Positions 1 through 64,000 of a DNA stretch of 64,000 nucleotides are shown in pieces (the stretch's first letter is position 1; every line of letters begins with the position of its first letter). Made by a program: the position numbers and the translations under genes. Source of the stretch: Giardia intestinalis (taxonomy: Eukaryota); the NCBI GenBank assembly GCA_000002435.2, contig CM018793.1; one strand, written 5' to 3'. The notes under the pieces were generated by a model. It was not told the origin of the DNA. It worked only from the letters and a program-made list of their open reading frames with translations, and ran no database searches.

Positions 1-1414
1 GGGCGCCCTCAACAGCAGCCCCGGTCCTGCACAGTCTCGATCAGGGGAACGTGCCCCTCGCTCTAAGGAGCTACACGAGACCTTCCTCTGGCCACAGCAC
101 ACATGGACTCAGTCCCGTGCAGTGTTCCTCAGGGACCCTCTAGGTATGCTCCTATGCTGCGCTGGACGGAACGCGCTCACTAAGCAGCTGAAGGAGGTGC
201 CCCCTCAGTGCCTGCGCCGACGACGTACTGATCCTGCGCGACGACAACAACGAGGCAATGAGGTTGGCAAACCCACGGACTGACGATCAACACAGACAAC
301 TTAAGAGCACCGAGGGGGTAGGAGGGCTCCTTCCTGGGTGTCCGGTCTCGAGGAGCGGCTACCCACGGCCTCCAAGGAGATAGAGAGGGTAACGAAAAGG
401 TTGCAACTGTGTCAATCGCCCACCACCCAAGCCAAGCTGATCTGGATAGACTCACCACGCGACCCCTACGGATCCCTCGGAGGGCAGGCCTGCCCTCTGG
501 ACGCCCGGCTCGAGCAACAGCGGACCGAGCTCCTGGCTACGCAGGACAGCGGCAGTCGGGAGTCCACCACAAGCAGCTGCGCGGTGCTTGACACCTCGAC
601 GTGAGACGTGGCACATGGGCAGGCTGCCAGCGGGACAGCCTCGTGGTGAGCAACGCATCGTACACGAAACGTGCCCTGGTCGCTCCGATGCTTCAGATAA
701 CGCCTCTCGGAGAGCTGTGACCGGGCCAGCCTCTCCGGCTGAACGACTCATGGCTCCACGTACACTCTGCGGTACGGATGGGTGCAGACCACACCAGCCG
801 AGCCGGCACACTGCACAGGGTGTGGACCTGCGAGTGTGTACTGGCTGCTGACCACCTGGCACCACAGGTGCACTGCGGTTCATGAGCAGAAGGGCGAGCC
901 GGGCGTCTCCTCCGCGCCAACCAGGGGTCGACATGAGGGTCCACGGGCACACGCTATAATCCAGGAGGACGCATGGCGAACGCACCCCGACGGTAGGATC
1001 GATGGTCCACTCCATGAGGAGGCGAGAAGGAACCCGAGTCGGCATTCCGAGGCCATGACACATGCGATCTTCGTCGTGGAGCACTACACCCTCAAGGCCA
1101 GACCGCCACGACTTGCGACAGGGCCCTGGGGCAGCGGTACCCACCAGGCGCCAGGCAGCAGCCGGCCCCATGGAGGTTGAGCAAAGGAAGGGAGAAGTCC
1201 ATCGAAGGCGCTGTGGAAAACTAGCAACAGCACGAAAGGGAGCCAAACAACATTAAACCTCTTCTTTTCCCATCAGAGCTGGACGGAGTCTGAATTTCGA
1301 ATGTCGGATTTTGGATGGTAAACAAGGAAGGACCTATCTGATGAGGTGGCGGATCGCGCGATGGACTTACTCGGACAGCGGCTAGCAAACCAGCCTCGGT
1401 GAAACAGAGAGTAA
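1..1414. repeat. Left arm of a long perfect inverted repeat (>=1414 bp, truncated by window start); exact reverse complement of 3463..4876
   Basis: Seen directly: position x pairs with 4877-x (checked at 1-80, 601-660 and 1401-1414). All six-frame ORFs in 180..1455 have identical mirror ORFs in 3395..4697 (264, 132, 87, 85, 88, 92, 60 aa). GC-rich (~60%). Confidence 0.9.
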
Positions 1415-1750: not shown

Positions 1751-3370
1751 GTGAGCTATAAACAAGATAATGTGAATTATAAAATATTTACCGTCACACA
1801 CATTCCGTTTACAGCAATTAAAACAAAAATGTCTTTAGCCAAACTCGATGATGGGCGTAGCAGTCTTGAAGCTGGTGGTAGGTCGAGCGTAGAAGCCCGT
1901 CTCTTAGATGGAGAGGCTGACCTTGCATGGGCTATCGTGAATGGGCACAAAGAGATAATGAGGGTACTTTCAAAGTACGTTGGCTGGACTGACCTCATTT
2001 GTGCCGCTGCTCTTGGGAGCGTGAACAGGGTCATGGAGCACCTTGATGAGTGTGAAGAAAGGGACGTCAATGGTAGGACAGCCCTTATGTGGGCTGCTAT
2101 GAACGGGCATAAAGAGGTAGTGGAGATGTTAGTGGAGTATGGAAAGAAGATGGTTGATGACCAGGGTCATACTGCTCTGTACTACGCTCTCAAGGGTGGG
2201 TCTCTTGAGATTGCCAAAATACTTATACCTCACGAAAACCCAACCGATGAGAACGGCATCACGGCGCTCATGCGGGCTGCTACCGATAGAGACGCCGAAA
2301 TGGTGGAATTGCTTATACCACTCCAGAAGGGAATGAAGGATAAGGACGACAACACAGCGTTCGTGCATGCCCTCAAAAACAAACATACGGACATCGCTCT
2401 GCTTCTCCGCGGACATGAATCCCCCTCGTGGACTCCCTTGATGTGTGCTGCTTTCATCGGTGATGTCAAAGTAGCCAGAAGATATTTATCTAGCAAAGAT
2501 GAGAAGAATAATGATGGTAACACTGCGTTAGTACTTGCTGCGAGGGCAGGACATAGAGATATCGTAGAGCTTATTGATCCTATTGATGAGAACGGCATCA
2601 CGGCGCTCATGCGAGCTGTTGGTAGAAATGACGTGGAGGCTGTAAAAGCACTCTTACCCATCCAGAGGGGAAGAAAAACATACAAAGAGGTCACAATAAG
2701 CGGATGGTACATGCGCAAAGGAACAGCTCTGATGATGGCTGCGGCACATGGATACGCAGAAATAGTAGAACTGCTAGCAGAGCACGAAAAGGGAGAGAAA
2801 GTAGGCGGTTGGACCGCTCTCATATTCGCGGCACGGTGCAATCGTTCCAATGACCCCCTGGTGGACTATTCTAAGTGCGTTGAGCTCCTGGTAAAGCACG
2901 AGGGCGACATTTCAGGGTGGACGGATCTCATATATGCCGCTTACCGTGGCGATATTGACGCAGTCAGAAACAACCTTCATATGAAGGGAAGCCAGGATGC
3001 TGGTGGGTGGACAGCGCTTATGTATGCAGCAGCACGAGGGCACGAAGCGATTGTAGAGCTGCTCAAGCAAGAAACTCGTATGAAGAATAACGATCATCAG
3101 ACTGCCCTCATGTGGGCAGCACGCAATGATCATCCAGAGTGCGTCAGGCTCCTAATGAAGGACGAAGGCGGCATGCAAACGACCAAGGGCTGGACCGCCC
3201 TTATGAACGCAGCATATAGCAACACCGTGGAGTGTGCAAGGCTTCTTAAGGAAACCGAGAAAGATCTGAAGACAACCTGCAGCTGCCATGGTCACTCGCC
3301 TGGTACCACTGCTCTCGACATCGCTAAGAAGAAGGATCACAAAGAGATAGTAGACATCCTTTCAAGCTGA
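1751..3370 (+). CDS. Ankyrin-repeat protein, Giardia Protein 21.1 family (539 aa; real start may be the Met at 1829, MSLAKLDDG)
   Basis: Long ORF with about 12 ankyrin repeats and the recurrent G(W/R/H)TALM(W/R)AA signature typical of Giardia 21.1 proteins. Sits in the 2048-bp spacer between the inverted-repeat arms. Confidence 0.85.
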   Translation: MSYKQDNVNYKIFTVTHIPFTAIKTKMSLAKLDDGRSSLEAGGRSSVEARLLDGEADLAWAIVNGHKEIMRVLSKYVGWTDLICAAALGSVNRVMEHLDECEERDVNGRTALMWAAMNGHKEVVEMLVEYGKKMVDDQGHTALYYALKGGSLEIAKILIPHENPTDENGITALMRAATDRDAEMVELLIPLQKGMKDKDDNTAFVHALKNKHTDIALLLRGHESPSWTPLMCAAFIGDVKVARRYLSSKDEKNNDGNTALVLAARAGHRDIVELIDPIDENGITALMRAVGRNDVEAVKALLPIQRGRKTYKEVTISGWYMRKGTALMMAAAHGYAEIVELLAEHEKGEKVGGWTALIFAARCNRSNDPLVDYSKCVELLVKHEGDISGWTDLIYAAYRGDIDAVRNNLHMKGSQDAGGWTALMYAAARGHEAIVELLKQETRMKNNDHQTALMWAARNDHPECVRLLMKDEGGMQTTKGWTALMNAAYSNTVECARLLKETEKDLKTTCSCHGHSPGTTALDIAKKKDHKEIVDILSS

Positions 3371-3462: not shown

Positions 3463-4876
3463 TTACTCTCTGTTTCACCGAGGCTGGTTTGCTAGCCGCT
3501 GTCCGAGTAAGTCCATCGCGCGATCCGCCACCTCATCAGATAGGTCCTTCCTTGTTTACCATCCAAAATCCGACATTCGAAATTCAGACTCCGTCCAGCT
3601 CTGATGGGAAAAGAAGAGGTTTAATGTTGTTTGGCTCCCTTTCGTGCTGTTGCTAGTTTTCCACAGCGCCTTCGATGGACTTCTCCCTTCCTTTGCTCAA
3701 CCTCCATGGGGCCGGCTGCTGCCTGGCGCCTGGTGGGTACCGCTGCCCCAGGGCCCTGTCGCAAGTCGTGGCGGTCTGGCCTTGAGGGTGTAGTGCTCCA
3801 CGACGAAGATCGCATGTGTCATGGCCTCGGAATGCCGACTCGGGTTCCTTCTCGCCTCCTCATGGAGTGGACCATCGATCCTACCGTCGGGGTGCGTTCG
3901 CCATGCGTCCTCCTGGATTATAGCGTGTGCCCGTGGACCCTCATGTCGACCCCTGGTTGGCGCGGAGGAGACGCCCGGCTCGCCCTTCTGCTCATGAACC
4001 GCAGTGCACCTGTGGTGCCAGGTGGTCAGCAGCCAGTACACACTCGCAGGTCCACACCCTGTGCAGTGTGCCGGCTCGGCTGGTGTGGTCTGCACCCATC
4101 CGTACCGCAGAGTGTACGTGGAGCCATGAGTCGTTCAGCCGGAGAGGCTGGCCCGGTCACAGCTCTCCGAGAGGCGTTATCTGAAGCATCGGAGCGACCA
4201 GGGCACGTTTCGTGTACGATGCGTTGCTCACCACGAGGCTGTCCCGCTGGCAGCCTGCCCATGTGCCACGTCTCACGTCGAGGTGTCAAGCACCGCGCAG
4301 CTGCTTGTGGTGGACTCCCGACTGCCGCTGTCCTGCGTAGCCAGGAGCTCGGTCCGCTGTTGCTCGAGCCGGGCGTCCAGAGGGCAGGCCTGCCCTCCGA
4401 GGGATCCGTAGGGGTCGCGTGGTGAGTCTATCCAGATCAGCTTGGCTTGGGTGGTGGGCGATTGACACAGTTGCAACCTTTTCGTTACCCTCTCTATCTC
4501 CTTGGAGGCCGTGGGTAGCCGCTCCTCGAGACCGGACACCCAGGAAGGAGCCCTCCTACCCCCTCGGTGCTCTTAAGTTGTCTGTGTTGATCGTCAGTCC
4601 GTGGGTTTGCCAACCTCATTGCCTCGTTGTTGTCGTCGCGCAGGATCAGTACGTCGTCGGCGCAGGCACTGAGGGGGCACCTCCTTCAGCTGCTTAGTGA
4701 GCGCGTTCCGTCCAGCGCAGCATAGGAGCATACCTAGAGGGTCCCTGAGGAACACTGCACGGGACTGAGTCCATGTGTGCTGTGGCCAGAGGAAGGTCTC
4801 GTGTAGCTCCTTAGAGCGAGGGGCACGTTCCCCTGATCGAGACTGTGCAGGACCGGGGCTGCTGTTGAGGGCGCCC
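3463..4876. repeat. Right arm of the long perfect inverted repeat (reverse complement of 1..1414; may extend past 4876 because the left arm is cut by the window edge)
   Basis: Seen directly; the inner boundary is at 1414/3463, where the complementarity ends. Confidence 0.9.
3485..3518 (-). repeat. Conserved 34-nt junction element (CGATGGACTTACTCGGACAGCGGCTAGCAAACCA), inverted-repeat copies at 1359..1392 (+) and 3485..3518 (-); third diverged copy at 12313..12346
   Basis: Direct comparison: 12313..12346 reads CGATGGACTTACTCAGACTGCGGCCAGCAAACCA, i.e. 31/34 identical to the inverted-repeat copy. In both loci the element lies 55-115 nt downstream of a 21.1 ankyrin gene stop, in the same orientation relative to that gene. 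Confidence 0.6.
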
Positions 4877-6588: not shown

Positions 6589-8115
6589 CTACAAAGGCGC
6601 AGAGGGTCGGGTGCTGGGGTGCCCGCCTTCTTCCGTTTTCGCCAGAGATACGCGGCACCGAAGCATTGAAACTGAGTGAGAGAGGCCGTCCAGCGCGGCG
6701 GTTCGCATGAGGAATTTATTCTGACAGCATTGAAATTCTTCTACAGGGGAGACCTCCTCCACTTCCACAGGATGCCCGTGGAGAGCGGCGCAGACGGCCC
6801 CCGCTCTGTCGGCACGTGCGAGCTGGCCCCTTCGACACACACGTTCTGCGCCCTGTACGAGACAGAGGGGGCCTTGCGGTGCGTCTTCACGGCCGTGGAC
6901 AGGGTGCGCCTGTTCCTCTGCATGGCGAGCACGCAGGTGAGTTCCGGCCGTCGTGCTGGGGTCGGGGGGAAGTCGCAGAGGGACCAGGAGGGGAAGCCTC
7001 GAACGGGTTAGCACCGCATAGGACTTCCTTCCATTGCCTAAAACACGCAAGGGTGCACGCGTCCACCCACTGAGCAGGCAGATGAGGCGATGACTGATGG
7101 CAGGGTGGCCAAGACTCACTTCTGCCCTCGGCCGAGCGACACATGAAATGAAGAGCGTTTGCATCTTAAACAGATAGATATTGTGTTTTTGCGAGGCGTC
7201 TTGTCTGGGCGGTTTTGGGTTGGAGGGGCTAGAGTTATTATTTGTGCGAGGGTTGTCATGCTCTAGTGGAAGAAAGAATACAACTCGAGATATGATTGAT
7301 TCTAGAAGAGTCAACCCCAGTGAATACACATCTCCCAAAGCATCAAGAGACGTGGGTGTTACACTTTCTTGTCGGTCAAAGAGGGAACCATTAGTAGAGA
7401 GGAAATCATAGCATCTGAGCGTCGATTCAGGCGCCCTGTACACGAGGGTGCACGTTGTTCCCGTTGAAATGGGGGAGTAGTGATCGGCGGAAAGAACCTC
7501 AGGCTCAGCGTAGTTAGCAGAAGCACTTGGAGAGGAATAAACACAATACTTAGCCATCCCCAGGTCTGCAAGAAAAGCAGAGCCGTTGCCATCCAGAAGA
7601 ATGTTCGACGGCTTGACGTCTCTGTGTGCGATCCCCAGTCTGTGAAGGTTCCGAAGACAAGTAACCACAGAGTGCCAGAAGAACACCATCTGGGACAGTG
7701 TAAAGCTGCTTACTAAGTTGTACGTTCGGAACCTTTCACAGTCGTGTGGATAGAGCGGAGTGACAAGGCAGATTAGCGAAGAGCAGTTCTCGAAATGCTT
7801 CGCAAAGGGTAAGTCTTTCGTTGTATCATCGAGTCGTAATTTGAAGCTCGAGATAAGATCGATTGCAGGATTCTTAAAAGGCTGGCCGCCAGCCGTAACC
7901 TGAGCCAGGTATGCGAGTAAGGTCACTTCACGCAGCACCAGATGGTTGAAAACGCCTGAAATGCCGACAGCCTTGAGAGCAACAGGTTTGCCCGTCTCCT
8001 TATCTATCCCCTTGTAGATCGTGCCGTACGCGCCTGCTCCGAGGTACCCTGTGGGTGACCAGTCGATCGCATACCGCTCGAGGGAAGAGGGGATGGTCGG
8101 CTGTGGCTCGGTCAT
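6589..8115 (-). CDS. Ser/Thr protein kinase, NEK-like, probably a fragment or pseudogene (kinase subdomains I-IX present; C-terminal about 560 nt of the ORF looks non-coding)
   Basis: GAGAYGT glycine loop, VALK, HRDVKPSNILL, DLG, APE and DVYSLG are present, but subdomain XI is missing and the remaining ORF (6589..7150) is Arg/Pro/Ala-rich GC-rich read-through. The listed ORF start at 8217 reads through the tRNA; the start is taken as the internal Met at 8113..8115 (MTEPQPTIP). Confidence 0.5.
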   Translation of the reverse strand: MTEPQPTIPSSLERYAIDWSPTGYLGAGAYGTIYKGIDKETGKPVALKAVGISGVFNHLVLREVTLLAYLAQVTAGGQPFKNPAIDLISSFKLRLDDTTKDLPFAKHFENCSSLICLVTPLYPHDCERFRTYNLVSSFTLSQMVFFWHSVVTCLRNLHRLGIAHRDVKPSNILLDGNGSAFLADLGMAKYCVYSSPSASANYAEPEVLSADHYSPISTGTTCTLVYRAPESTLRCYDFLSTNGSLFDRQESVTPTSLDALGDVYSLGLTLLESIISRVVFFLPLEHDNPRTNNNSSPSNPKPPRQDASQKHNIYLFKMQTLFISCVARPRAEVSLGHPAISHRLICLLSGWTRAPLRVLGNGRKSYAVLTRSRLPLLVPLRLPPDPSTTAGTHLRARHAEEQAHPVHGREDAPQGPLCLVQGAERVCRRGQLARADRAGAVCAALHGHPVEVEEVSPVEEFQCCQNKFLMRTAALDGLSHSVSMLRCRVSLAKTEEGGHPSTRPSAPL

Positions 8116-8130
8116 CAAAACAAGGGAAAG

Positions 8131-8203
8131 TGCCGGGGCCGGGAATCGAACCCGGACCGATCGGACGACAACCGAGCGCGCTAGACCGTTACGCCACCCC
8201 AGC
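8131..8203 (-). tRNA. tRNA-Asp (anticodon GTC), 73 nt
   Basis: The minus-strand sequence GCTGGGGTGGCGTAACGGTCTAGCGCGCTCGGTTGTCGTCCGATCGGTCCGGGTTCGATTCCCGGCCCCGGCA folds into a cloverleaf by hand: 7-bp acceptor stem (one G-U pair), D-stem GCGT/GCGC, anticodon loop TTGTCGT (U33, GTC at 34-36), T-loop TTCGATT, T-stem CCGGG/CCCGG, discriminator A. Confidence 0.85.
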
Positions 8204-8214
8204 CAGGGAGGAAA

Positions 8215-9250
8215 CAAATTAAAGATTATATAAAATATTTGGTTTAATAGAAATTATTTGTAATAGAGTATTTGTAATTTTATTGGTTTATCCTAACTTT
8301 TTCTGACAATCGTTCACTCCCTAAAATAGACACCTTTTAGGCACTAGCATCGTAAACGGTGCAGGACATAAGATCTAACATGCGTTGAAAGTTTCATCAC
8401 ACTAAATCTTCATAACCAACAAACTGGACAAAGTTCTTTTTGGAACTATTTAACTATCTGTCCAGTGCCTTAAAAAGATTTACTCTTCATTGCTATTGCC
8501 AAATTCAGGGTAATTCTAGCATTATACTCTGTACAACTCGGTCTCTTGCCAGATAAACATATTTACTATCGGCAATAACTTTGCTAGGTTACATGTAATA
8601 TAGCGAATGTTTATCGTACAATAATTGAAATTAGGCCTGTTGTCCACAAAAGTAATTTATTCTTAAAGTTACTCATTCTCTTCTAATGGAGTACTGTGCA
8701 CACAGTTCCTCTCTACTTATAAAAAGTTGACATTTGGATGCAACAACATCTTAACCAGCCTTGTAGAAAGAATCTCTATGTATGAAGCACTTCTAAGAAA
8801 TGTATTATAGTAACAACTTAAATAACATCAGACCTGTTTTAGTGTTTACCGTTGTGTTAGTCAATATTTTTATAACCATAAACAATTCTAGAGCAATTCT
8901 CCACGACAATATACCGCAGACTTCATAAGTGGTAACTATAAATTTATTCTACAATGGCACTACTACGGTTTTAAAGAAAATTGCTTCCTCATGAAACTTA
9001 CTGACTGGTTAGAAACAAAACTATTTATCATTAATTGATAATCATTAGAACTCCAGGCAGTATCTTTCAAATAACTCCCCGTTGCTTCTAATATATAGTG
9101 AGGGAATATTTACCACTTGTAAGATTATTTGAAAAGTTCATTAAATAGCACTTCCAATATCAGCATCTCTTACATTGAATAAATTTAGATGTTATTTGAA
9201 CAGAAAATTATCTTTAAACTTACTATTAATAGTCATCATATAGTGCTAAA
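8215..9250. other. About 1 kb strongly AT-rich, ORF-free island (roughly 28-30% GC against a ~50% GC background)
   Basis: Seen directly: no ORF of 60 aa or more in any frame and no tandem periodicity visible by eye. Sharp transitions to GC-rich DNA at ~8215 (tRNA side) and ~9250-9290 (retroelement side). Confidence 0.7.
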
Positions 9251-9646
9251 AGCAATGGAGACAAGGATATCTGATAGAGGAGCGTCATGTATGAGTTTCT
9301 ATATGTGGTGCCGCTGAGGCTTGTCGCGGTGCGGTCCAGAAATCTCACGGGCAAGCCTCGCTCAGTCCCTGACCAGCTCGGAGACGAAGGTTGGCTGCGG
9401 GCGTGCACATCGATCTTTTCGAGGTTTTCTTACGGGCTCGCTGGTCTACTAGGGTGCCTCTCCCTGTTCTCCCTTCACGATTGGCGAAGCTCTGGTCTTT
9501 GTTGTCATTCTCAATACTGTCCATGTAGATCAGCAGCAGCTAACGGGGCCCTCTCCACTGGCTGGGATTCCACTCGGTTGTGTGTCCAGTCTTGCGCCCC
9601 CTTTCGGTCGTTGTCGACAGGTCCCAGGGATGGATTCATTCGGTTG

Positions 9647-10143
9647 TCAGAAGTAGGATGACAGGAGGCGGTCGCTCTGGGTGGCCAGGCTTTCGGCCCG
9701 GTCGCGTCTGATCAGCTTCGTCAGGTGCTCGTTCGCCTCTGCAGCCATGTGGGCGATGGCGAAGGCAGCCCGGACAGAGAGCTTCTCGACGTCCACGTGG
9801 AGCTCCTCGAGGTGCCTCTTGGACCTGGGGTGGAGGGATCCGTCCGTCTCATAGATGATCGGGAGCGTCCCGTCCCTGTACTTCTTGGCCTTCTCGCTGT
9901 GGTATCCATCTGGCGGGGCTGGATGACACCCACGTCCACTGCCTTGCACTTGTCGACGAGCCAGATGTCGGGCTTCTGGTTCTGGTCGCTGAGGTGGCTG
10001 TGGGTCTTGACTTCCAGCTCCGGTTGAGCTTCCCCGAGACGCGGAGGTACAGGTACGCGACGATCATGTTGTGCCTCGTGGTCGAGGGTCTGCCGTGTGG
10101 CAGCCCGGGCAGGTGCCTCTTGTCTGCGCCATGATCGAGCCAT
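9647..10143 (-). pseudogene. Restriction-enzyme-like (R2/GENIE-type) endonuclease domain remnant of the retrotransposon
   Basis: A PD-(x11)-D-V ... K-K-Y pattern is split between two frames (9721..10143 and 9647..9949). Confidence 0.5.
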
Positions 10144-11385
10144 CTCTCTCCTTCAGGGCCCTTTCCTCCTCGGTCAGCACGCCGCCGCTCTGTCCGGAAG
10201 CTGATGTGTGCGCGTGAGGAGGCGGTTGAAGTAGGTCCCCTTCCCCTGCAGTGCCTGGCCGCCCACCGACAGCTCCACCGGGTCCCTGGTCCCCTTGTTG
10301 ACGTCCGGGGAGGCCCATGCCCTCCGCAGCTCGTCGTGGCAGAGCCCCGGCATGAGCAGGCCCAGGCCGCTCTTCTCCTTCGGGTACGCCAGGAAGTCGA
10401 CCAGGCGATCGCAGCTTCTGCTGGTTAGCTTGTTGAAGCCTTGTGCGACGTCTGTCGAGCTCCTCGTAGTCCGCCTTGTCCGATGTCATCTCGACCAGGG
10501 GGGCGTAGTTCACCATCGGGACCACGCAGAGTGACAGCAGGATGAGCTTCTGGTGGGTGGTTATGGGGGCAGTCTCGGCACCTGCGATGGCCTTTGGTGC
10601 GGGACTGGCTGGAGTGGGGGACACCGGGTGGCTGAGGAAGGTCACCTCCTCGCCCGCCATGGTGGACTTGCATTTGTCGCTCCTTATCGTCAGGTCCATA
10701 GCCTGCTGTACTATTGCGCCTGCTGGGTAGGCCTCATCGTGGAGCGCCACGATGTCGTCTGCATAGGCAAGGAAGGCGATGCCTCTCTCCGTGAGGCGTC
10801 TCAGAGGCGCTCGATGGCCATGCAGAAGAGGAGCGTGCTGAGCGGGTCGTCCTGGGGGACGCCGCAGACCCCGCACTTCACGTCCTTGCTGTGCCTCAGG
10901 TCGAGGAAGTTCCTGATGTAGTCGACCAGGACCTTCGGGATGCCCGCCTCGTTCAGGGCTCTGACGACCTCTGCCCTCGGGAGCGAGTTGAAGGCCTTCT
11001 TTGTGTCGAGGGAGACGGCGTGCACCTGTCCTGCTGATGAGCTCGTGGGCCCTCCTCATGCCTACCGCGTATGCGTTCTGCATGAAGGCGATCTGTTCGC
11101 ACGAGAGGTAGTTGGCATGCTTGATCAGCCGCTTCAGCAGGACGCGGTGGAAGATGTTTGTCACCGTCTCGCCATCGCGATCGGACGGTATCCGTCGGAC
11201 TCCTTCGGGATGAGGATCGCCCGGAACTCGAACATGGCCATCACGTCGGACATCGCCTCGGGGTGGGTGGTCAGCTCGTTGTACGCCTGCGTGAGGTACT
11301 TCACGAAGTCGTCGTTCTGCTTCCTCGCTTTGAGCTGGACCGCCCGAGGCCTTCTTGTTGAGGGTCCCAACAGGGCCTTCCTCAT
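10064..11385 (-). pseudogene. Reverse transcriptase domain of the dead retrotransposon (frameshifted)
   Basis: RT motifs 0/1, A, B' and C (YADD) are spread over three overlapping ORFs in different frames, so at least two frameshifts are needed to read through. Confidence 0.75.
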
Positions 11386-12312
11386 TTCTTCTTCGGTTGC
11401 CGGCTCCAGCCCGTTGAGCTCATCGATGGAGGGTAGTCAAGGCTAACGTAGCCTTCGGGGGGACGCACGGGTGTAACGCGCTGAGGGCGGCCTTGGCTTT
11501 CTCCGGCTTGATGTCAACCATGGGCGTATCATCAAGGGCGCGGAGAGCCTTGGCAACTGCTCCGAAGCTCAGCGCGTTACTCACCCTGTTTGCTATCCGG
11601 CGCCTCGCCTTCTCGGGGTCTGGGTCTGCCTTACTCTGGGACTGCTCCGTGGTGTTGCTTGAGTCCTCCAGGCCTCCTACCAGGGCGTTCAGGCCCCTGA
11701 TTGCGGGGAGCGCGACCCCAGTCCCGGGCTGCTCGATGCTCGCGATCATGCGCGCACCCTGGTGGATGAGCATGGCAGCTGTCTGGTTCGGTATGTGGGA
11801 CGGAAGGATCGGTTTGTCGTCGCCCGGTACTCTGTGTCTGTCGTTGTTTGCTTCTCTTAGATGCTCGGTTGGTTGCTTGGCACCCTCGCACGGTAGGCCA
11901 CAGAGCCAGCGTGTGTGTCCTGCCGAGAGGGCAAACGTCTTCGGAGTGGTCTCCCAAGTAGAACCTCACGATTGCTCTCTGGGGCCCGGAGGTACGATCT
12001 TGCGTTCATGATGTGGATCGGGTCTTCGCGGGCTCTCCTTCGCCTCAGATCCAGCTGTGCACACTCCCAGTCTGGGCACACACCCGCAGAACAGCTGAGG
12101 AACGCAATAGCTCCTCCCTTCCACTACTGTGGTCATTATCATATTCCATAGCCAACCCTCGTCTCCGGACATCGCCAAAAATTGAGTGGGAATTTACTCG
12201 CGAGATTTGCGGACAGCACCCGCAGGCGAGGGCCCCAGCAGCACACCACTGGAAGCAACCGGTGGGTGGAGTAAATGATGAGCGAGGATGCCGTTCAACA
12301 TAGTGACTCGTA

Positions 12313-12397: not shown

Positions 12398-13279
12398 CTA
12401 TTGGTCATTGCAACCATTGACACTAGGTGTACTGCCCCTAAGGAGAGACGCTATCTCGAGGTATCCCCTAGAAGTAATCTTGTCAAAGAAATATTCATTA
12501 GACTTGTCTATCAGATGCCCCTCTTTTTCTAATAGAAGCTTTACCACTTCTAAGTGACCCTTTAGCGCTCTATGTTCAAGAGCAGTCATCTCATTCCTAT
12601 CCTTTACACCCCCCTCCAGATCTACTAACAATCTTGCTATTTCCACGTTCCCCATAGAAGCCGCGTTCATAAGCGCAGTCATACCTACCATGTTTTGTGC
12701 ACCACTGTCGTATCTTATTACCAACTTTGCTGTCTCTATGCAACCGCGTGTGGCTGCTCGCATAAGCCTCGTGTCGCCGAATGTATCGGTTGGCTCAAGA
12801 ATATTCACAATAATTTTGTGCCCTGCCTCCTTAGCAATCATCAGGGCCATCTTGCCTTCGCTGTCGATTAAGTTCTCCTCGTACGGAATCAGAACAGAAG
12901 CAGCCTCCGCATGGCCCTCCTGTGCGGCGATCATCAGAGCAGTACGGCTGTTCTTGTTTCTTCTCCCACATTCGTAAGGGGCAAGAATTTCAACTACCTC
13001 AGGGTGGTTGTTGTGTGCGGCGTGCATGAGTGCAGTCCAGCCGTTCTTGTCCTGGAGGCCCCTCTCTTCCTCAACAAGCAACTCGACGGGATCAGCGTGC
13101 CCCTGCTCGTCGCGCTGATCAACACCGAGTCTTTCTTCAAGCAGCATCCGGACGGTCTCTGTGTTATTCGTGTGCGCGGCACGCATCAGCCTGGGCAGCA
13201 AAAGGAGGCTGGACTGAGGGCCAGCCATATTCACTCTGTCATCGAACTGTGCAAGCCTACTCTCCAGTGCCTTAATCAT
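12398..13279 (-). CDS. Ankyrin-repeat protein, Protein 21.1 family (293 aa)
   Basis: Repeated GxTALMxAA ankyrin units. Confidence 0.85.
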   Translation of the reverse strand: MIKALESRLAQFDDRVNMAGPQSSLLLLPRLMRAAHTNNTETVRMLLEERLGVDQRDEQGHADPVELLVEEERGLQDKNGWTALMHAAHNNHPEVVEILAPYECGRRNKNSRTALMIAAQEGHAEAASVLIPYEENLIDSEGKMALMIAKEAGHKIIVNILEPTDTFGDTRLMRAATRGCIETAKLVIRYDSGAQNMVGMTALMNAASMGNVEIARLLVDLEGGVKDRNEMTALEHRALKGHLEVVKLLLEKEGHLIDKSNEYFFDKITSRGYLEIASLLRGSTPSVNGCNDQ

Positions 13280-13281
13280 AG

Positions 13282-14342
13282 CTAGATGTTCCTTACTTTG
13301 GTCTTCAAGTGCGTCGATCTAGTGGATTTAGTCTTAACATCCTCTTCCAGCAGCGCGATCCTGGCGTTAGCGCCATTCAGCGCAGCCTCCAAGGATCCGC
13401 ACTTATACTTCAGCATCACGCACTGACCCCCCAACTCACTAACTGGGATGTCGAATGTAGTGAGCGTCTCATGCAGCTCCCTGACCATCGGCCTCCTCTC
13501 TGGCTCCAGCACGAATATCCTCTCCAGAACACTCTTTATGAATCCATCAGTGAGACCGCTCAGGTCCGGCCTCCACCCGTCACGAAGACCTCTGCCGGCT
13601 CCTTGCCCCCCAAGAAGTCCGGTCTCCTCAGAGTTACTAATTCATAAATGATGACCCCGAGGCTCCATACGTCGGAGGCAGGGCTGGCCTCGTTGTGGAG
13701 GAGCACCTCGGGGGCAACGTATGCCATTATTCCTATGAGAGTGCTCCCGCATCTCAGGGCGTCCTTGCAGAGGCTGAAGTTGGCGATGACGAAGCGCTCT
13801 CCGTCTGCGCTAATAAGGACGTTGGCAGGCCTGAGGTTGCGGTGGACAAACCTCCTAGTATTTGCTCCATTGACACCGTGGAGGTAGGCGAGGGCGGCGG
13901 CAAGCTGCCTCACAATTGAGAGGATCACAGCGATAGGGACGAGGTTCTTCCTTCGCTTGTGCTCGGCGAGGAGGCGCTCAAGGGTCTTGTCGTGCCGGTC
14001 CATGACGACATAGATGAGGCCCTCGTCTTCGACTACTTGGTGGTGCTTGAGGACTCCTGGGTGGGAGAGGGTAAGGATGACGGTCAATCTTGTCTTGATG
14101 GCGTCCAGATCCCCCTTGTCCAGGCCGTCGATGAGGATCTCCTGCACAGCGAGGTCCGGAAAGTCCTTGAGGGAGTAGACTGTCACCATAGTGCTTTCAT
14201 TAAGCACATCACCTAACCGCTCATGAAGCTCCCTAGGGGTGAACGGTAAGACACTGACAGCTGTTGTTGCAGGCTCAGACGAGGAAGTGTCCATCCTGGT
14301 ATTATTTTGGTAATCTACCGTTTTGGAAACGATCCTTTCCAC
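13282..14342 (-). CDS. NEK-like pseudokinase interrupted by a frameshift (ORFs 13560..14342 and 13282..13512 belong to one kinase domain); possible pseudogene or sequencing error
   Basis: The upstream ORF carries kinase subdomains III-IX with HRN replacing HRD, ANFS replacing DFG and no glycine loop, so it is a predicted inactive kinase. The downstream ORF in another frame encodes subdomain XI (LTDGFIKSVLERIFVLEPERRPMVRELHETL). Hand translation shows both frames open across 13513..13580. Confidence 0.6.
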
Positions 14343-14599
14343 AGGAGTTTATGTCTACAAGTCTACAGCGGCCCTGTATCTGTGGGGGCTTCTGCATAGG
14401 AGATGAGAAGGCCACCTGCGCGACCGTTTCACCCACCGGCGTTCCAGCGCTGACCGAGGGTGAGAAGGCCTGCTCCCCTGACCTCTGCGGACACGGGTGG
14501 TTGTGTGCCCCACTGACAGCCAGCACTTCACCCTAGTGGCTGACCATCCCTTTGTACAGCTGAAGGGAGACTCTAGTCCCCGTCGGATGCAATCAACAG

Positions 14600-15698: not shown

Positions 15699-16292
15699 CT
15701 ACGCTTTGCCCCGGCAGAGGAACCACCAGCAGAGGAAGCCGACGAGGCCCCCGACGACGATGACAGCGGCCACAGCGATGCCAGCTATGGCGCCCGTGGA
15801 AAGGCCGCTCTTGTTGACGCTAGAAGGCACGCACTTTTTATCATCACCTAGAACAAATCCGTCGTTACACTCTGTACACGTGCCGTCGGGACATGACTTG
15901 CAGTTAGGAAGATCGCAGCCAGCGGGCGCGTCCGCGCAAACACGCTCGTTCGCGGTGGGGCCGTACGGGCACTCGTCGTAGCATCCGCCCTTGTAGAGGC
16001 TGTGCGCGCCCGTGCATGCAGTGCACGTCCCTGCCTTATCGCTTGTACCGGCCGTGCACATGCCCGCGTCCGTCTTCGCCTTGCACTCCCCGTTCACCGG
16101 GACCTTGTCCCCTGTGCACTTGGAGCAGAAGGTCTGGCCCCCGATTTCCACGTTGCAGCTGTCGGCGGCGCAGTTTGTCGCGCCGGGGTTTGCGGCGGCG
16201 CACGGCGTTGGGTTTGTCTTTGCTTTACTTGCTGTTTGCGACGCCAAGGCCATTTGCAGGGCCAAGCTTACAAAAATAAGCTTATCGAACAT
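15699..16292 (-). CDS. vsp: Variant-specific surface protein (VSP), small (197 aa)
   Basis: N-terminal signal peptide (MFDKLIFVSLALQMALA), many CxxC motifs, a C-terminal transmembrane helix and the invariant VSP cytoplasmic tail CRGKA. Confidence 0.9.
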   Translation of the reverse strand: MFDKLIFVSLALQMALASQTASKAKTNPTPCAAANPGATNCAADSCNVEIGGQTFCSKCTGDKVPVNGECKAKTDAGMCTAGTSDKAGTCTACTGAHSLYKGGCYDECPYGPTANERVCADAPAGCDLPNCKSCPDGTCTECNDGFVLGDDKKCVPSSVNKSGLSTGAIAGIAVAAVIVVGGLVGFLCWWFLCRGKA

Positions 16293-17387
16293 TGGGCCAG
16301 CGCTCGGGCAATAGCCATTTAGAAAGCAAGTTTCTTGAGAATTACGCCATGAAATGATGAAGATGGTATGATATTTGTTGTCGATACCAGGAGTGTGGCT
16401 TTCATCGACAAAGGGTGCCTAGATCAGTGTTCAGGAGAATAATAGAGTCACGTGCTGTCATCTACAGTATTTGGTGCAGAGAGGAAAGTGGAGGAGCTCA
16501 GATGAGAGTAAGTATGTAGCTAGAGGTACGCTATTATCAGTGACTGTTTGTTATGAAAGGAATAAGCAGGCCACAGCAGAGGCTTTCCTATCAGTCCTCT
16601 ACATTAGATCCAATGTGTCGCCGGGATCTCTGGGCGGTGCCAGCATCTAGCTGATGCACGCGACCGTTGTTGTTCAGCCGCCTATCTTGCCCACAGCCCC
16701 AGACCTGTCCCTGGGTCTTAAATCATCAGTGGTTTTCCCGCTCCCAGCAGCTCTGATCTGCGGGGGTATTGTCATTAGCTAACGGTAGAGCAAAAGATGT
16801 GTCCCTCTGGGTTATCAGACTCTTATGGCGTCATCTAATTAGCTTCACCTTATGCTTTTTCACCCGACTATCTTATAGATAAGACTCTGGATTAATACCT
16901 TTTGACGTTTAAAGAGTCCCTTGAGACTCCTCTTCGATTTGCGACAGAAGGAGCCGTCATACTATGGAATCCCCTGTCCAGTATCTCCATCTCTTCGTTG
17001 CAGAAGTCCATCTGGCAAAAATAACTTACATTCATCGTCTCTGCTTGTCGACAGGCAAAGTATCTAGCTTCTATTCTGATCATTTGGTGATTAGGCCTGA
17101 TCTGACTATTTAGTATGAGTCCGTTGCAGTCGTGTTGTGATTGAGCCATTTTTATTGCTCTTTTTTGTAGAAATCCCGCGCATTGATAAACAGTATGTAT
17201 TAAGAGTTGAGATGCACTAATGGAGAGACAATTGGAATAGGTCTTTTCCCGCAGGTTGTAGCCTTAAGTTTATGGTCAATAGCTTGCCTTCTCTTCTAGA
17301 CACAGTCAAAGGTTCAACGAAGCTCTACGAAGCGCTGTCTATGAAGAAGACCCGATGTCGCAATATGAACAGCATGCCCCACTTTCA

Positions 17388-57561: not shown

Positions 57562-57567
57562 GCTTTT

Positions 57568-57574
57568 AGTGAAT
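57568..57574 (+). promoter_or_regulatory. Putative poly(A) signal AGTGAAT 7 nt after the stop
   Basis: Matches the AGTRAAY consensus. Confidence 0.4.
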
Positions 57575-57651
57575 GAAGTGATGTAACTGTTTCAAGATGA
57601 AAAGTCTTTGTTATTCAGCCATTCCAAAAATAGTTACACCAACCCGTATAG

Positions 57652-63716: not shown

Positions 63717-64000
63717 AATGAATTACTCTCAATACACTGCCTTAAACGAGGACGCAGTATCAGAATTATTTAAGCGAAGGCTTGAAGAGCTACAGAGGAG
63801 TTGCAGGCGCAGCTACCGGCAACCTATTGTCGGCCATAGACAGCTGGATATGTATCAACTGTTCAGGGCTGTGCAGGCCCGGGGAGGAGCCAAGAATGTC
63901 ACACAGTGGAAGGAAATAGGTAAGAAGCTGGGTCTTCCAGCCAGTGTCACCAATGCTGGGTATACTCTTCGTACCAAGTATGAGTCGTATATTCTTCCAT
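63717..64000 (+). CDS. ARID/BRIGHT-domain protein, 5' part only (runs off the window end)
   Basis: ATG at 63717, then IVGHRQLDMYQLFRAVQARGGAKNVTQWKEIGKKLGLPASVTNAGYTLRTKYESYILP, which fits the ARID consensus (LDL..LY..V...GG...V...W.......TSA...L...Y..YL). Open to position 64000. Confidence 0.6.

What the first reader, a model, noticed from the sequence alone, without database searches (positions are those of the whole stretch)
8215..9250. 1-kb AT-rich, ORF-free island, anomalous for Giardia base composition
- Roughly 28-30% GC against a ~50% GC genome.
- No ORF of 60 aa or more in six frames, and no obvious tandem repeat.
- Wedged between tRNA-Asp and the 3' end of the dead retrotransposon, with sharp composition boundaries.
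- Possible identities:
  - the decayed long 3' UTR of the retroelement;
  - a foreign or horizontally acquired fragment;
  - a replication-origin or centromere-like or matrix-attachment region.
- Such AT islands are rare in Giardia.
Basis: seen in the sequence. Interest (0 to 1): 0.55.

Follow-up and report, generated by a model that had tools for sequence, protein, structure and literature searches.

The report
Long AT-rich spacer beside Giardia tRNA
A real 1.1-kb stretch of gene-free, AT-rich DNA lies just upstream of a tRNA gene in a heavily rearranged part of a Giardia chromosome; it is not the tail of the neighbouring dead retrotransposon and looks like ordinary Giardia spacer DNA that is unusually long, although a role as a chromosome landmark such as a centromere could not be tested.

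Summary
Window 8204-9307 (1,104 bp) is 31.5% GC against 50.6% for the window. It has no coding signal, no repeats and no RNA-family match. GC jumps from 64% to 21% at the tRNA edge and from 32% to 66% at the GilD edge.

The retroelement-UTR reading is refuted. Two other GilD copies are 3.1-kb units ending in about 213-bp terminal inverted repeats, with no AT-rich tail and no similarity to the island. The window copy simply lacks the last ~32 bp of its 3' repeat where it meets the island.

The island belongs with tRNA(GTC). An independent short-read contig carries 813 bp of the island, the tRNA and the kinase 5' part with zero mismatches. The kinase fragment beyond the tRNA is a truncated duplicate of an intact gene that elsewhere follows a tRNA-His and GC-rich DNA. 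Both ends of the island-plus-tRNA block are therefore rearrangement junctions.

The island's dinucleotide signature matches native Giardia intergenic DNA, and no foreign match was found.

Best reading: an unusually long native non-coding spacer, the 5' flank of a tRNA gene, in a gene-poor junkyard. A centromere or origin role is untested, and Giardia centromeres are still unidentified. Interest is low to moderate.

The parts
8204..9307 (.). AT-rich, ORF-free island (1,104 bp, 31.5% GC): non-coding spacer forming the 5' flank of the tRNA(GTC) gene
8130..8203 (-). tRNA gene with anticodon GTC (Asp). It forms a good cloverleaf, and the TTTT Pol III terminator abuts the kinase ATG. Its body is 81% identical to the tRNA-His(GTG) found at the intact kinase locus.
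8211..8240 (-). Proximal upstream element AAATATTTTATATAATCTTTAATTTGTTTC at -8 to -37 of the tRNA. It is TATA-like. 22 of 30 bases are shared, at nearly the same distance (7 vs 9 nt before the tRNA), with the tRNA-His flank of a divergent isolate (L002).
   Evidence: marginal: score 16 vs shuffles 12+-1.6
8403..8482 (+). Nested imperfect palindrome or hairpin inside the island. RNA fold z = -4.1 on the plus strand and -2.4 on the minus strand. Significance unknown.
9308..12278 (-). Dead GilD-type non-LTR retrotransposon copy (61% GC). It is 85-86% identical to two DH-isolate copies over 12278->9435.
9308..9396 (-). Degraded, internally deleted 3' terminal inverted repeat of the GilD copy. The terminal ~32 bp are missing, so the GilD/island junction is a truncation breakpoint.
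12056..12278 (-). 5' terminal inverted repeat of the GilD copy
10064..11164 (-). Longest remaining RT ORF of the GilD copy (YADD motif)
7199..8115 (-). 5' two-thirds of a CMGC/CDK kinase: a duplicate of the intact gene P0033 that lies elsewhere on the same chromosome. Only 1 aa differs in the first 312.
6589..7198 (-). Unrelated GC-rich tail fused in frame to the truncated kinase (annotated protein P0001, 508 aa). The breakpoint lies at about 7146-7198.

Best explanation
The island is native Giardia non-coding DNA: the 5'-flanking spacer of a Pol III-transcribed tRNA(GTC) gene. It sits in a gene-poor, rearrangement-prone stretch holding a dead GilD element, VSP-like, NEK and ankyrin genes, and a truncated gene duplicate.

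Shown: it is not part of GilD. Its composition is that of unconstrained Giardia spacer DNA, AT-rich and CpG-depleted. It stands out for two reasons. It is about three times longer than any other spacer sampled. It is also clamped between two very GC-rich objects, the tRNA and the truncated inverted repeat of GilD. Both ends of the island-plus-tRNA block are junctions made by rearrangement. One is a truncation junction with GilD at 9307/9308. The other lies at the 3' end of the tRNA, where a copy of the tRNA-His/kinase locus was joined, plausibly by recombination within the 3' halves that the two tRNAs nearly share.

Inferred function: the first ~40 bp supply the TATA-like upstream element of the tRNA gene. 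The rest probably has no dedicated function. It would be expected to behave as nucleosome-poor DNA that fires promiscuous, bidirectional 'sterile' Pol II transcripts, as AT-rich patches do in Giardia.
For: Not GilD: the complete GilD in L008 is 3,132 bp, bounded by 213-bp inverted repeats that are 93.9% identical. Its 3' flank is 44-56% GC for about 700 bp and is unrelated to the island. Homology of the window copy to L007 and L008 stops at 9435, followed by a degraded repeat reaching 9308.

Linked to the tRNA: contig L009, from an independent read set, carries 813 bp of the island, tRNA(GTC) and the kinase 5' part with 0 mismatches over 9016->7199.

The kinase is a duplicate: WB has an intact 545-aa copy (P0033) and this 508-aa fusion (P0001), both listed with a longest contig of 4,018,654 bp, so apparently on the same contig. 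At the intact locus in DH, two further assemblage-A-like contigs (L011, L012), P15 and two more divergent lineages, the kinase follows a tRNA-His and there is no island. Homology to the window ends at the tRNA. Against the DH intact locus, the window differs at 14 of 73 positions in the tRNA and 18 of ~915 in the kinase.

Native signature: CpG rho is 0.53, against 0.58-0.60 in window intergenic DNA, 0.80 in coding DNA and 0.84 in GilD. The dinucleotide distance to the intergenic pool is 0.070, equal to the sampling noise for 1.1-kb pieces, 0.069.

Non-coding and unstructured overall. There is no Rfam hit and no Giardia ncRNA 3'-processing motif (motif from PMC3510501).

Literature: AT-rich patches in Giardia act as degenerate, bidirectional cryptic promoters (PMC1885649). 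GilD copies lie in gene-poor regions next to VSP genes and are disrupted by microhomology-mediated deletions (PMC2861651).
Against: The island is an outlier even among spacers. Other gaps in the window are 25-345 bp, apart from one 1,095-bp gap at 45% GC (16293-17387), and pool to about 42% GC. The published mean intergenic length is 477 bp (PMC7000408). Why a compact genome keeps 1.1 kb of unconstrained DNA is unexplained.

Its presence or absence at the tRNA(GTC) locus of other assemblages could not be checked, so conservation is unknown. One 80-nt hairpin folds better than all 200 shuffles. 'No dedicated function' is an inference from negative results. L009 may be a collapsed contig of the two near-identical kinase copies, so it proves the island-tRNA-kinase junction but not a separate locus.
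Confidence: 0.55

Rival explanations
1. The island is the fully decayed relic of something that once stood upstream of the tRNA, either a lost gene or an unknown mobile element other than GilD. It has since drifted to Giardia's AT-rich mutational equilibrium. This concerns origin and is compatible with the spacer having no function today.
For: The length, 1.1 kb, is gene-sized. The region is full of decaying pieces: dead GilD, a truncated kinase and a split NEK ORF. The dinucleotide signature is that of long-resident non-coding DNA.
Against: No residual coding signal remains. Stop density equals the random expectation, and the longest open stretch is shorter than in shuffles. The six-frame translations gave no credible Pfam match; the only match was DUF7137 at E = 0.054, below its curated cut-off. 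There are no terminal repeats or target duplications. Transition-collapsed comparison found no homology to 150 kb of Giardia DNA.
Confidence: 0.18
2. The island is a cis-acting chromosomal element defined by composition: a small low-GC regional centromere of the diatom or Cyanidioschyzon type, or a replication origin or scaffold attachment site.
For: It meets the compositional rule reported for diatom centromeres: <33% GC over >=500 bp, no repeats, in a ~47% GC genome (bioRxiv 10.1101/096016). Here the lowest 500 bp is 29.4% GC, and the island is unique in 64 kb. It lies in a gene-poor, retroelement-bearing region next to a tRNA gene. Giardia centromeres are still unidentified (PMC12669663).
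Against: Only composition supports it. The island-plus-tRNA block is bounded by rearrangement junctions, one of which looks recent or recently homogenised, which is not expected of an essential, stable element. The number of such islands per chromosome is unknown, and a random 64-kb window has only about a 3% chance of holding one of five centromeres.
Confidence: 0.06
3. The island is horizontally acquired or otherwise foreign DNA from an AT-rich donor.
For: Its GC is 19 points below the window mean, with sharp edges. It is absent from the tRNA-kinase locus of other isolates.
Against: The dinucleotide signature is indistinguishable from native intergenic DNA. There were no blastn hits in plasmids or phages. 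Two long k-mers gave no exact match in bacterial and archaeal genomes, one also tested in viral contigs and metagenomes gave none, and a tRNA(GTC) probe found nothing in metagenomes. There is no coding relic. The sharp edges are explained by the GC-rich tRNA and the GilD repeat.
Confidence: 0.05
4. The island is the decayed long 3' UTR of the adjacent GilD/GENIE retroelement.
For: It lies directly 3' of the element on the element's strand. A review states that Giardia non-LTR elements have unusually long 3' UTRs (PMC5537684).
Against: Two other copies end in a GC-rich inverted repeat of their own 5' end. The complete one has no AT-rich tail, and neither shows similarity to the island. The window copy keeps a degraded version of that repeat, so the element ends at 9308. 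The island travels with the tRNA in L009.
Confidence: 0.02
5. The island is an assembly artefact or a mis-joined contaminant.
For: The window holds a suspicious 100%-identical 1.4-kb inverted repeat nearby, so local assembly quality deserves a check.
Against: An independent short-read assembly (Logan SRR9222557) reproduces the island-tRNA-kinase junction base for base over 1,818 bp. No bacterial, archaeal or viral exact matches were found.
Confidence: 0.01

Closest known systems
Giardia AT-rich intergenic/promoter spacers (degenerate TATA/Inr-like AT patches; Teodorovic et al. 2007, PMC1885649)
   Same: Both are non-coding, AT-rich and CpG-depleted with the same dinucleotide signature. Both sit directly upstream of a gene start, here a tRNA. 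A TATA-like block lies at about -30.
   Different: Length is 1,104 bp, against 25-345 bp for all but one of the other spacers in the window and a genome mean of 477 bp. GC is 31.5% against about 42% pooled. The gene served is a Pol III gene. No transcription data are available.
GilD / GENIE-2 dead non-LTR retrotransposon of Giardia (Arkhipova & Morrison 2001; Burke et al. 2002, recalled from memory; PMC2861651 for context)
   Same: The island is the immediate neighbour of a GilD copy. The junction looks like the deletions that typify GilD copies.
   Different: The island shares no sequence with GilD copies. It lies outside the element's terminal inverted repeats and has the opposite base composition (31% vs 61% GC).
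Low-GC regional centromeres of diatoms, Cyanidioschyzon merolae and Plasmodium (bioRxiv 10.1101/096016)
   Same: A short, unique, repeat-free tract of <33% GC in a genome of about 47-50% GC.
   Different: There is no evidence of cenH3 binding or of one island per chromosome. The flanks here are rearrangement junctions.
tRNA-gene-associated retroelement landing zones (Dictyostelium TRE, yeast Ty1/Ty3; recalled from memory)
   Same: A retroelement lies upstream of a tRNA gene.
   Different: GilD is 1.1 kb from the tRNA, not tens of bp. The two other GilD copies examined have no tRNA within the ~9-10 kb of sequence held around them. The GilD end at the island is truncated, not an insertion junction.

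Membership tests
GilD/GENIE-2 retrotransposon (as its 3' UTR) | Sequence homologous to the same part of other copies of the element | tested here: not met
   Homology to L007 and L008 ends at window 9435, or 9308 counting the degraded repeat. Neither blastn nor the transition-collapsed comparison matched the island.
GilD/GENIE-2 retrotransposon (as its 3' UTR) | Lies inside the unit bounded by the element's terminal inverted repeats | tested here: not met
   The L008 unit is 8543-11674 with 213-bp inverted repeats. The window's 3' repeat remnant is 9396-9308, so the island starts outside it.
Giardia intergenic spacer / AT-rich promoter region | No coding capacity | tested here: met
   Stop density is random and there is no credible Pfam match.
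Giardia intergenic spacer / AT-rich promoter region | Base and dinucleotide composition of native intergenic DNA | tested here: met
   CpG rho is 0.53 vs 0.58-0.60. The distance of 0.070 equals sampling noise. GC is at the low end of the spacer range, 0.19-0.50.
Giardia intergenic spacer / AT-rich promoter region | Typical length (tens to a few hundred bp) | tested here: not met
   1,104 bp against 25-345 bp for all but one other gap in the window and a genome mean of 477 bp (PMC7000408).
Giardia intergenic spacer / AT-rich promoter region | Initiates transcription | not testable with these tools
   No RNA data. This is inferred from PMC1885649 only.
Low-GC regional centromere (diatom type) | >=500 bp at <33% GC, without repeats | tested here: met
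   The lowest 500 bp is 29.4% GC and there are no repeats. The criterion comes from 10.1101/096016.
Low-GC regional centromere (diatom type) | One such region per chromosome | not testable with these tools
   Only 64 kb of the chromosome is available, and the WB genome could not be fetched.
Low-GC regional centromere (diatom type) | Bound by centromeric histone cenH3 | not testable with these tools
   Needs ChIP. Giardia centromeres are unidentified (PMC12669663).
Horizontally acquired DNA | Similarity to sequences of another organism | tested here: not met
   No hits in plasmids, phages, bacterial or archaeal genomes, viral contigs or metagenomes. Other eukaryotic genomes could not be searched.
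Horizontally acquired DNA | Oligonucleotide signature foreign to the host | tested here: not met
   The signature equals native intergenic DNA.
Giardia small non-coding RNA gene (sno/snRNA type) | Rfam family match, or the conserved 12-nt 3'-end processing motif | tested here: not met
   The only Rfam matches were to the tRNA itself. Neither HCMTTYHHTHAA nor CCTTYNHTHAA occurs in 8204-9307.
Giardia small non-coding RNA gene (sno/snRNA type) | Thermodynamically unusual, conserved secondary structure | tested here: inconclusive
   Mean z over 50 windows is -0.18. One hairpin at 8403-8482 reaches z = -4.1. No diverged homologues exist to test covariation.
Satellite / tandem repeat | Head-to-tail repeated units | tested here: not met
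   TRF found none at minimum score 30.

The most novel reading that the evidence does not exclude
The island is one of a handful of short low-GC tracts, one per chromosome, that mark the still-unidentified centromeres of Giardia. These would be specified by composition rather than sequence, as in diatoms and Cyanidioschyzon, and would sit in gene-poor, GilD- and VSP-rich chromatin next to a tRNA gene.
Probability: 0.04. Interest if true: 0.85.

Novelty: new member of a known kind. Interest (0 to 1): 0.3.

Why it matters
As it stands, the result mainly corrects an annotation-level guess. The AT island is not the tail of GilD, and GilD copies end in inverted repeats.

It also documents a small mosaic showing how Giardia's variable regions are built. 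The pieces are a truncated retroelement, a tRNA with its spacer, and a truncated gene duplicate joined at a tRNA gene.

The island would matter far more if it proved to be one of five such tracts. Giardia centromeres and origins are undefined, and a simple whole-genome GC scan plus cenH3 ChIP would settle the question.

Tried and rejected
Negative searches on the island:
- Second copy in the window by self-blast: none.
- Rfam at relaxed and gathering thresholds: only the tRNA.
- Six-frame translations with stops masked, against Pfam: one sub-threshold chance hit, DUF7137.
- blastn against plasmids and phages: no match.
- Exact k-mer scans with two island probes and one tRNA(GTC) probe, across metagenomes, bacterial and archaeal genomes and viral contigs: no match.
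- RIP-like origin from GilD or neighbouring DNA, tested by purine/pyrimidine-collapsed alignment to 150 kb: no better than shuffles.
- Direct, inverted and tandem repeats: nothing beyond chance.
- Yeast ACS-like motif: none. A/T runs are not enriched over shuffles.
- Giardia ncRNA 3'-processing motif: absent.
- A box C/D-like pattern near 9240 on the minus strand, seen by eye, was dismissed. It gave no Rfam hit, and its AT-rich guide region is unlikely to pair with what I recall as very GC-rich Giardia rRNA.
- Homology between the island and the tRNA-upstream regions of other lineages: none, except a marginal 30-nt proximal motif.

Attempts to fetch the same locus from other genomes:
- The WB record is not retrievable.
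- The A2-like contigs anchored on the 953-aa neighbour gene stop at window 14343, short of the island.

Full report
**Where we are.** The window is Giardia intestinalis WB. The kinase ORF at 6589-8115 is 100% identical to a WB protein (P0001). An ORF at 15699-16292 ends in the VSP signature CRGKA.

**Observation.**
- The island is real. The best AT-scoring segment is 8212-9304 at 31.1% GC, and its score is five times that of the next segment. The window as a whole is 50.6% GC, and no other 1-kb stretch falls below 43.7%.
- From junction to junction it spans 8204-9307, which is 1,104 bp at 31.5% GC. GC steps from 64% to 21% at the tRNA edge and from 32% to 66% at the other edge.
- It carries no ORF of 60 aa or more. 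Its stop-codon density equals the random expectation, and its longest open stretch is shorter than in shuffles.
- It has no tandem or dispersed repeats, no second copy in the window and no RNA-family match.
- In about 67 kb of other G. duodenalis DNA fetched here, nothing comparable occurs.

**The retroelement.**
- The GC-rich block to the right is a dead RT-bearing element on the minus strand, with a YADD motif and a weak RVT_1 match. Its closest proteins are Giardia 'reverse transcriptase' fragments.
- I fetched two other copies from the DH isolate. They align to window 12278->9435 at 85-86% identity.
- The complete copy, L008 8543-11674, is 3,132 bp long. It ends in a 213-bp inverted copy of its own 5' end, 93.9% identical.
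- Its 3' flank is 44-56% GC for about 700 bp and is unrelated to the island.
- The window copy keeps a degraded, internally deleted version of that 3' repeat at 9396-9308, but lacks the last ~32 bp.
- So the element ends at 9308 and the island lies outside it. The junction is a truncation of the kind reported for GilD copies (PMC2861651). The '3' UTR of the retroelement' reading is refuted.

**What the island travels with.**
- An independent short-read contig, L009 from Logan SRR9222557, holds 813 bp of the island, the tRNA(GTC) and the kinase. It shows zero mismatches to the window over 9016->7199. The island is therefore not an assembly artefact, and it is joined to the tRNA.

**The other side is also a junction.**
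- WB has two copies of this kinase: an intact 545-aa CMGC/CDK gene (P0033) and the 508-aa fusion in the window (P0001). Both are listed with a longest contig of 4,018,654 bp, so they appear to lie on the same contig.
- The two copies differ by one residue in the first 312, then diverge completely. At the DNA level the break lies at about 7146-7198.
- At the intact locus, the kinase is preceded by a tRNA-His(GTG) and followed by an SNF2 gene. This holds in DH, two further assemblage-A-like contigs (L011, L012), P15 and two more divergent lineages. In DH and P15 the DNA upstream of the tRNA is GC-rich. Homology to the window ends at or just upstream of the 5' end of the tRNA (8204; 8240 in L002).
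- Against the DH intact locus, the window differs at 18 of ~915 kinase positions but at 14 of 73 tRNA positions. The tRNA differences include three compensated stem pairs and the anticodon.
- Identity therefore collapses at the tRNA. The two tRNAs share an identical T-arm and an almost identical 3' acceptor strand, a plausible substrate for the joining event.
- An alternative remains open: an older duplication, homogenised by gene conversion, with the tRNA converted or anticodon-shifted.

**Native or foreign?**
- The island's dinucleotide signature matches the pooled intergenic DNA of the window. CpG rho is 0.53 against 0.58-0.60, while coding DNA shows 0.80 and GilD 0.84. The overall distance of 0.070 equals the sampling noise for 1.1-kb pieces.
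- Nothing similar exists in plasmids or phages. Two long k-mers have no exact match in bacterial and archaeal genomes, and one of them none in viral contigs or metagenomes.
- The purine/pyrimidine-collapsed comparison shows it is not a transition-mutated copy of GilD or nearby DNA.
- Recent foreign origin is therefore unlikely.

**Is it a gene for an RNA?**
- There is no Rfam hit, and the 12-nt 3'-processing motif that marks Giardia sno/snRNA genes (PMC3510501) is absent.
- The mean folding z-score is -0.18.
- One 80-nt nested hairpin at 8403-8482 does fold better than all 200 shuffles, with z = -4.1. No diverged homologue exists to test it.

**How unusual is it?**
- Other spacers in the window are 25-345 bp, apart from one 1,095-bp gap at 45% GC (16293-17387), and range from 19 to 50% GC, about 42% pooled. 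The published mean intergenic length is 477 bp (PMC7000408).
- The island has ordinary spacer chemistry but sits at the low end for GC and is about three times longer than any other comparably AT-rich spacer sampled.

**Most likely explanation (confidence about 0.55).**
- The island is a long native non-coding spacer, the 5' flank of tRNA(GTC), left in a gene-poor region that has been repeatedly cut and pasted.
- Its first ~40 bp hold a TATA-like block. A divergent isolate's tRNA-His flank carries a similar block at nearly the same distance (marginal).
- The rest is expected, by inference from PMC1885649, to act as a cryptic bidirectional promoter zone rather than a dedicated element.

**What remains open.**
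- The island meets the compositional rule for diatom-type centromeres, <33% GC over >=500 bp with no repeats (bioRxiv 10.1101/096016).
- Giardia centromeres are unidentified (PMC12669663).
- I could not count such islands per chromosome, see ChIP data, or retrieve the tRNA(GTC) locus of other genomes, because the contigs end short of it. I give this reading about 4-6%.

**Verdict.** The feature is best filed as an unusually long member of a known kind, AT-rich Giardia spacer DNA. The surrounding mosaic is the more informative result.

Noticed in passing
window 8130-8203 (minus) vs L010 9914-9985, L001 9914-9986: In WB the duplicated kinase fragment is preceded by a tRNA with anticodon GTC (Asp). 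The intact kinase in every other isolate examined is preceded by tRNA-His(GTG). The two tRNAs are 59/73 identical. They share the T-arm, the acceptor stem (one compensated pair) and discriminator A73. The D-stem has two compensated pair changes. This is either recombination between two tRNA genes or an anticodon-shifted tRNA-His copy.
   Followed up: partly
window 6589-8115 (minus): The annotated 508-aa 'kinase' P0001 is a truncated duplicate of the intact 545-aa CMGC/CDK gene P0033, which appears to lie on the same chromosome. From about residue 313-324 it is fused to an unrelated GC-rich reading frame, so it is probably a pseudogene.
   Followed up: yes
window 8115-8131: The kinase start codon lies 15 nt after the tRNA 3' end, and the TTTT Pol III terminator directly abuts the ATG. 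The Pol II promoter of the kinase must therefore overlap the tRNA gene. The same layout is seen at the intact locus in DH and P15.
   Followed up: no
window 1-1414 and 3463-4876: A 1,414-bp inverted repeat, 100% identical and 61% GC, flanks an ankyrin (protein 21.1-like) ORF at 1751-3370. A 76%-identical relative of the repeat lies in DH contig L007 5600-6402, between VSP and NEK genes. It is either a very recent inverted duplication of an unknown repeat family or an assembly artefact.
   Followed up: partly
L008 8543-11674; L007 9193-12292; window 9308-12278: GilD copies are bounded by terminal inverted repeats of about 213 bp (93.9% identical in L008, termini GTTTACTCCACCCACCGG...). This is an odd architecture for a non-LTR retrotransposon.
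   Followed up: partly
window 8403-8482: An 80-nt nested hairpin inside the island has an RNA fold z-score of -4.1 on the plus strand (0 of 200 shuffles as stable) and -2.4 on the minus strand.
   Followed up: partly
window 57565-57576 (minus) and 63770-63780 (minus): Matches to the Giardia ncRNA 3'-end processing motif (PMC3510501) fall in AT-rich DNA between or just outside the predicted ORFs, so small RNA genes may lie there. CCTTYNHTHAA occurs 8 times in the window against 2.4 expected.
   Followed up: no
window 12398-14342 (minus); L013/L014: A NEK-type kinase ORF (13560-14342) and an ankyrin ORF (12398-13279) look like one gene split by a stop or frameshift. Two A2-like metagenome contigs are collinear with window 30249->14343 at ~98% identity, and one of them ends exactly at 14343.
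   Followed up: no
L003 161-744 (also L004, L006): A divergent Giardia lineage (kinase 65% identical, locus 35.5% GC overall) has a 585-bp spacer of 19-31% GC directly upstream of its tRNA-His at the syntenic site. It shows no detectable similarity to the WB island.
   Followed up: partly
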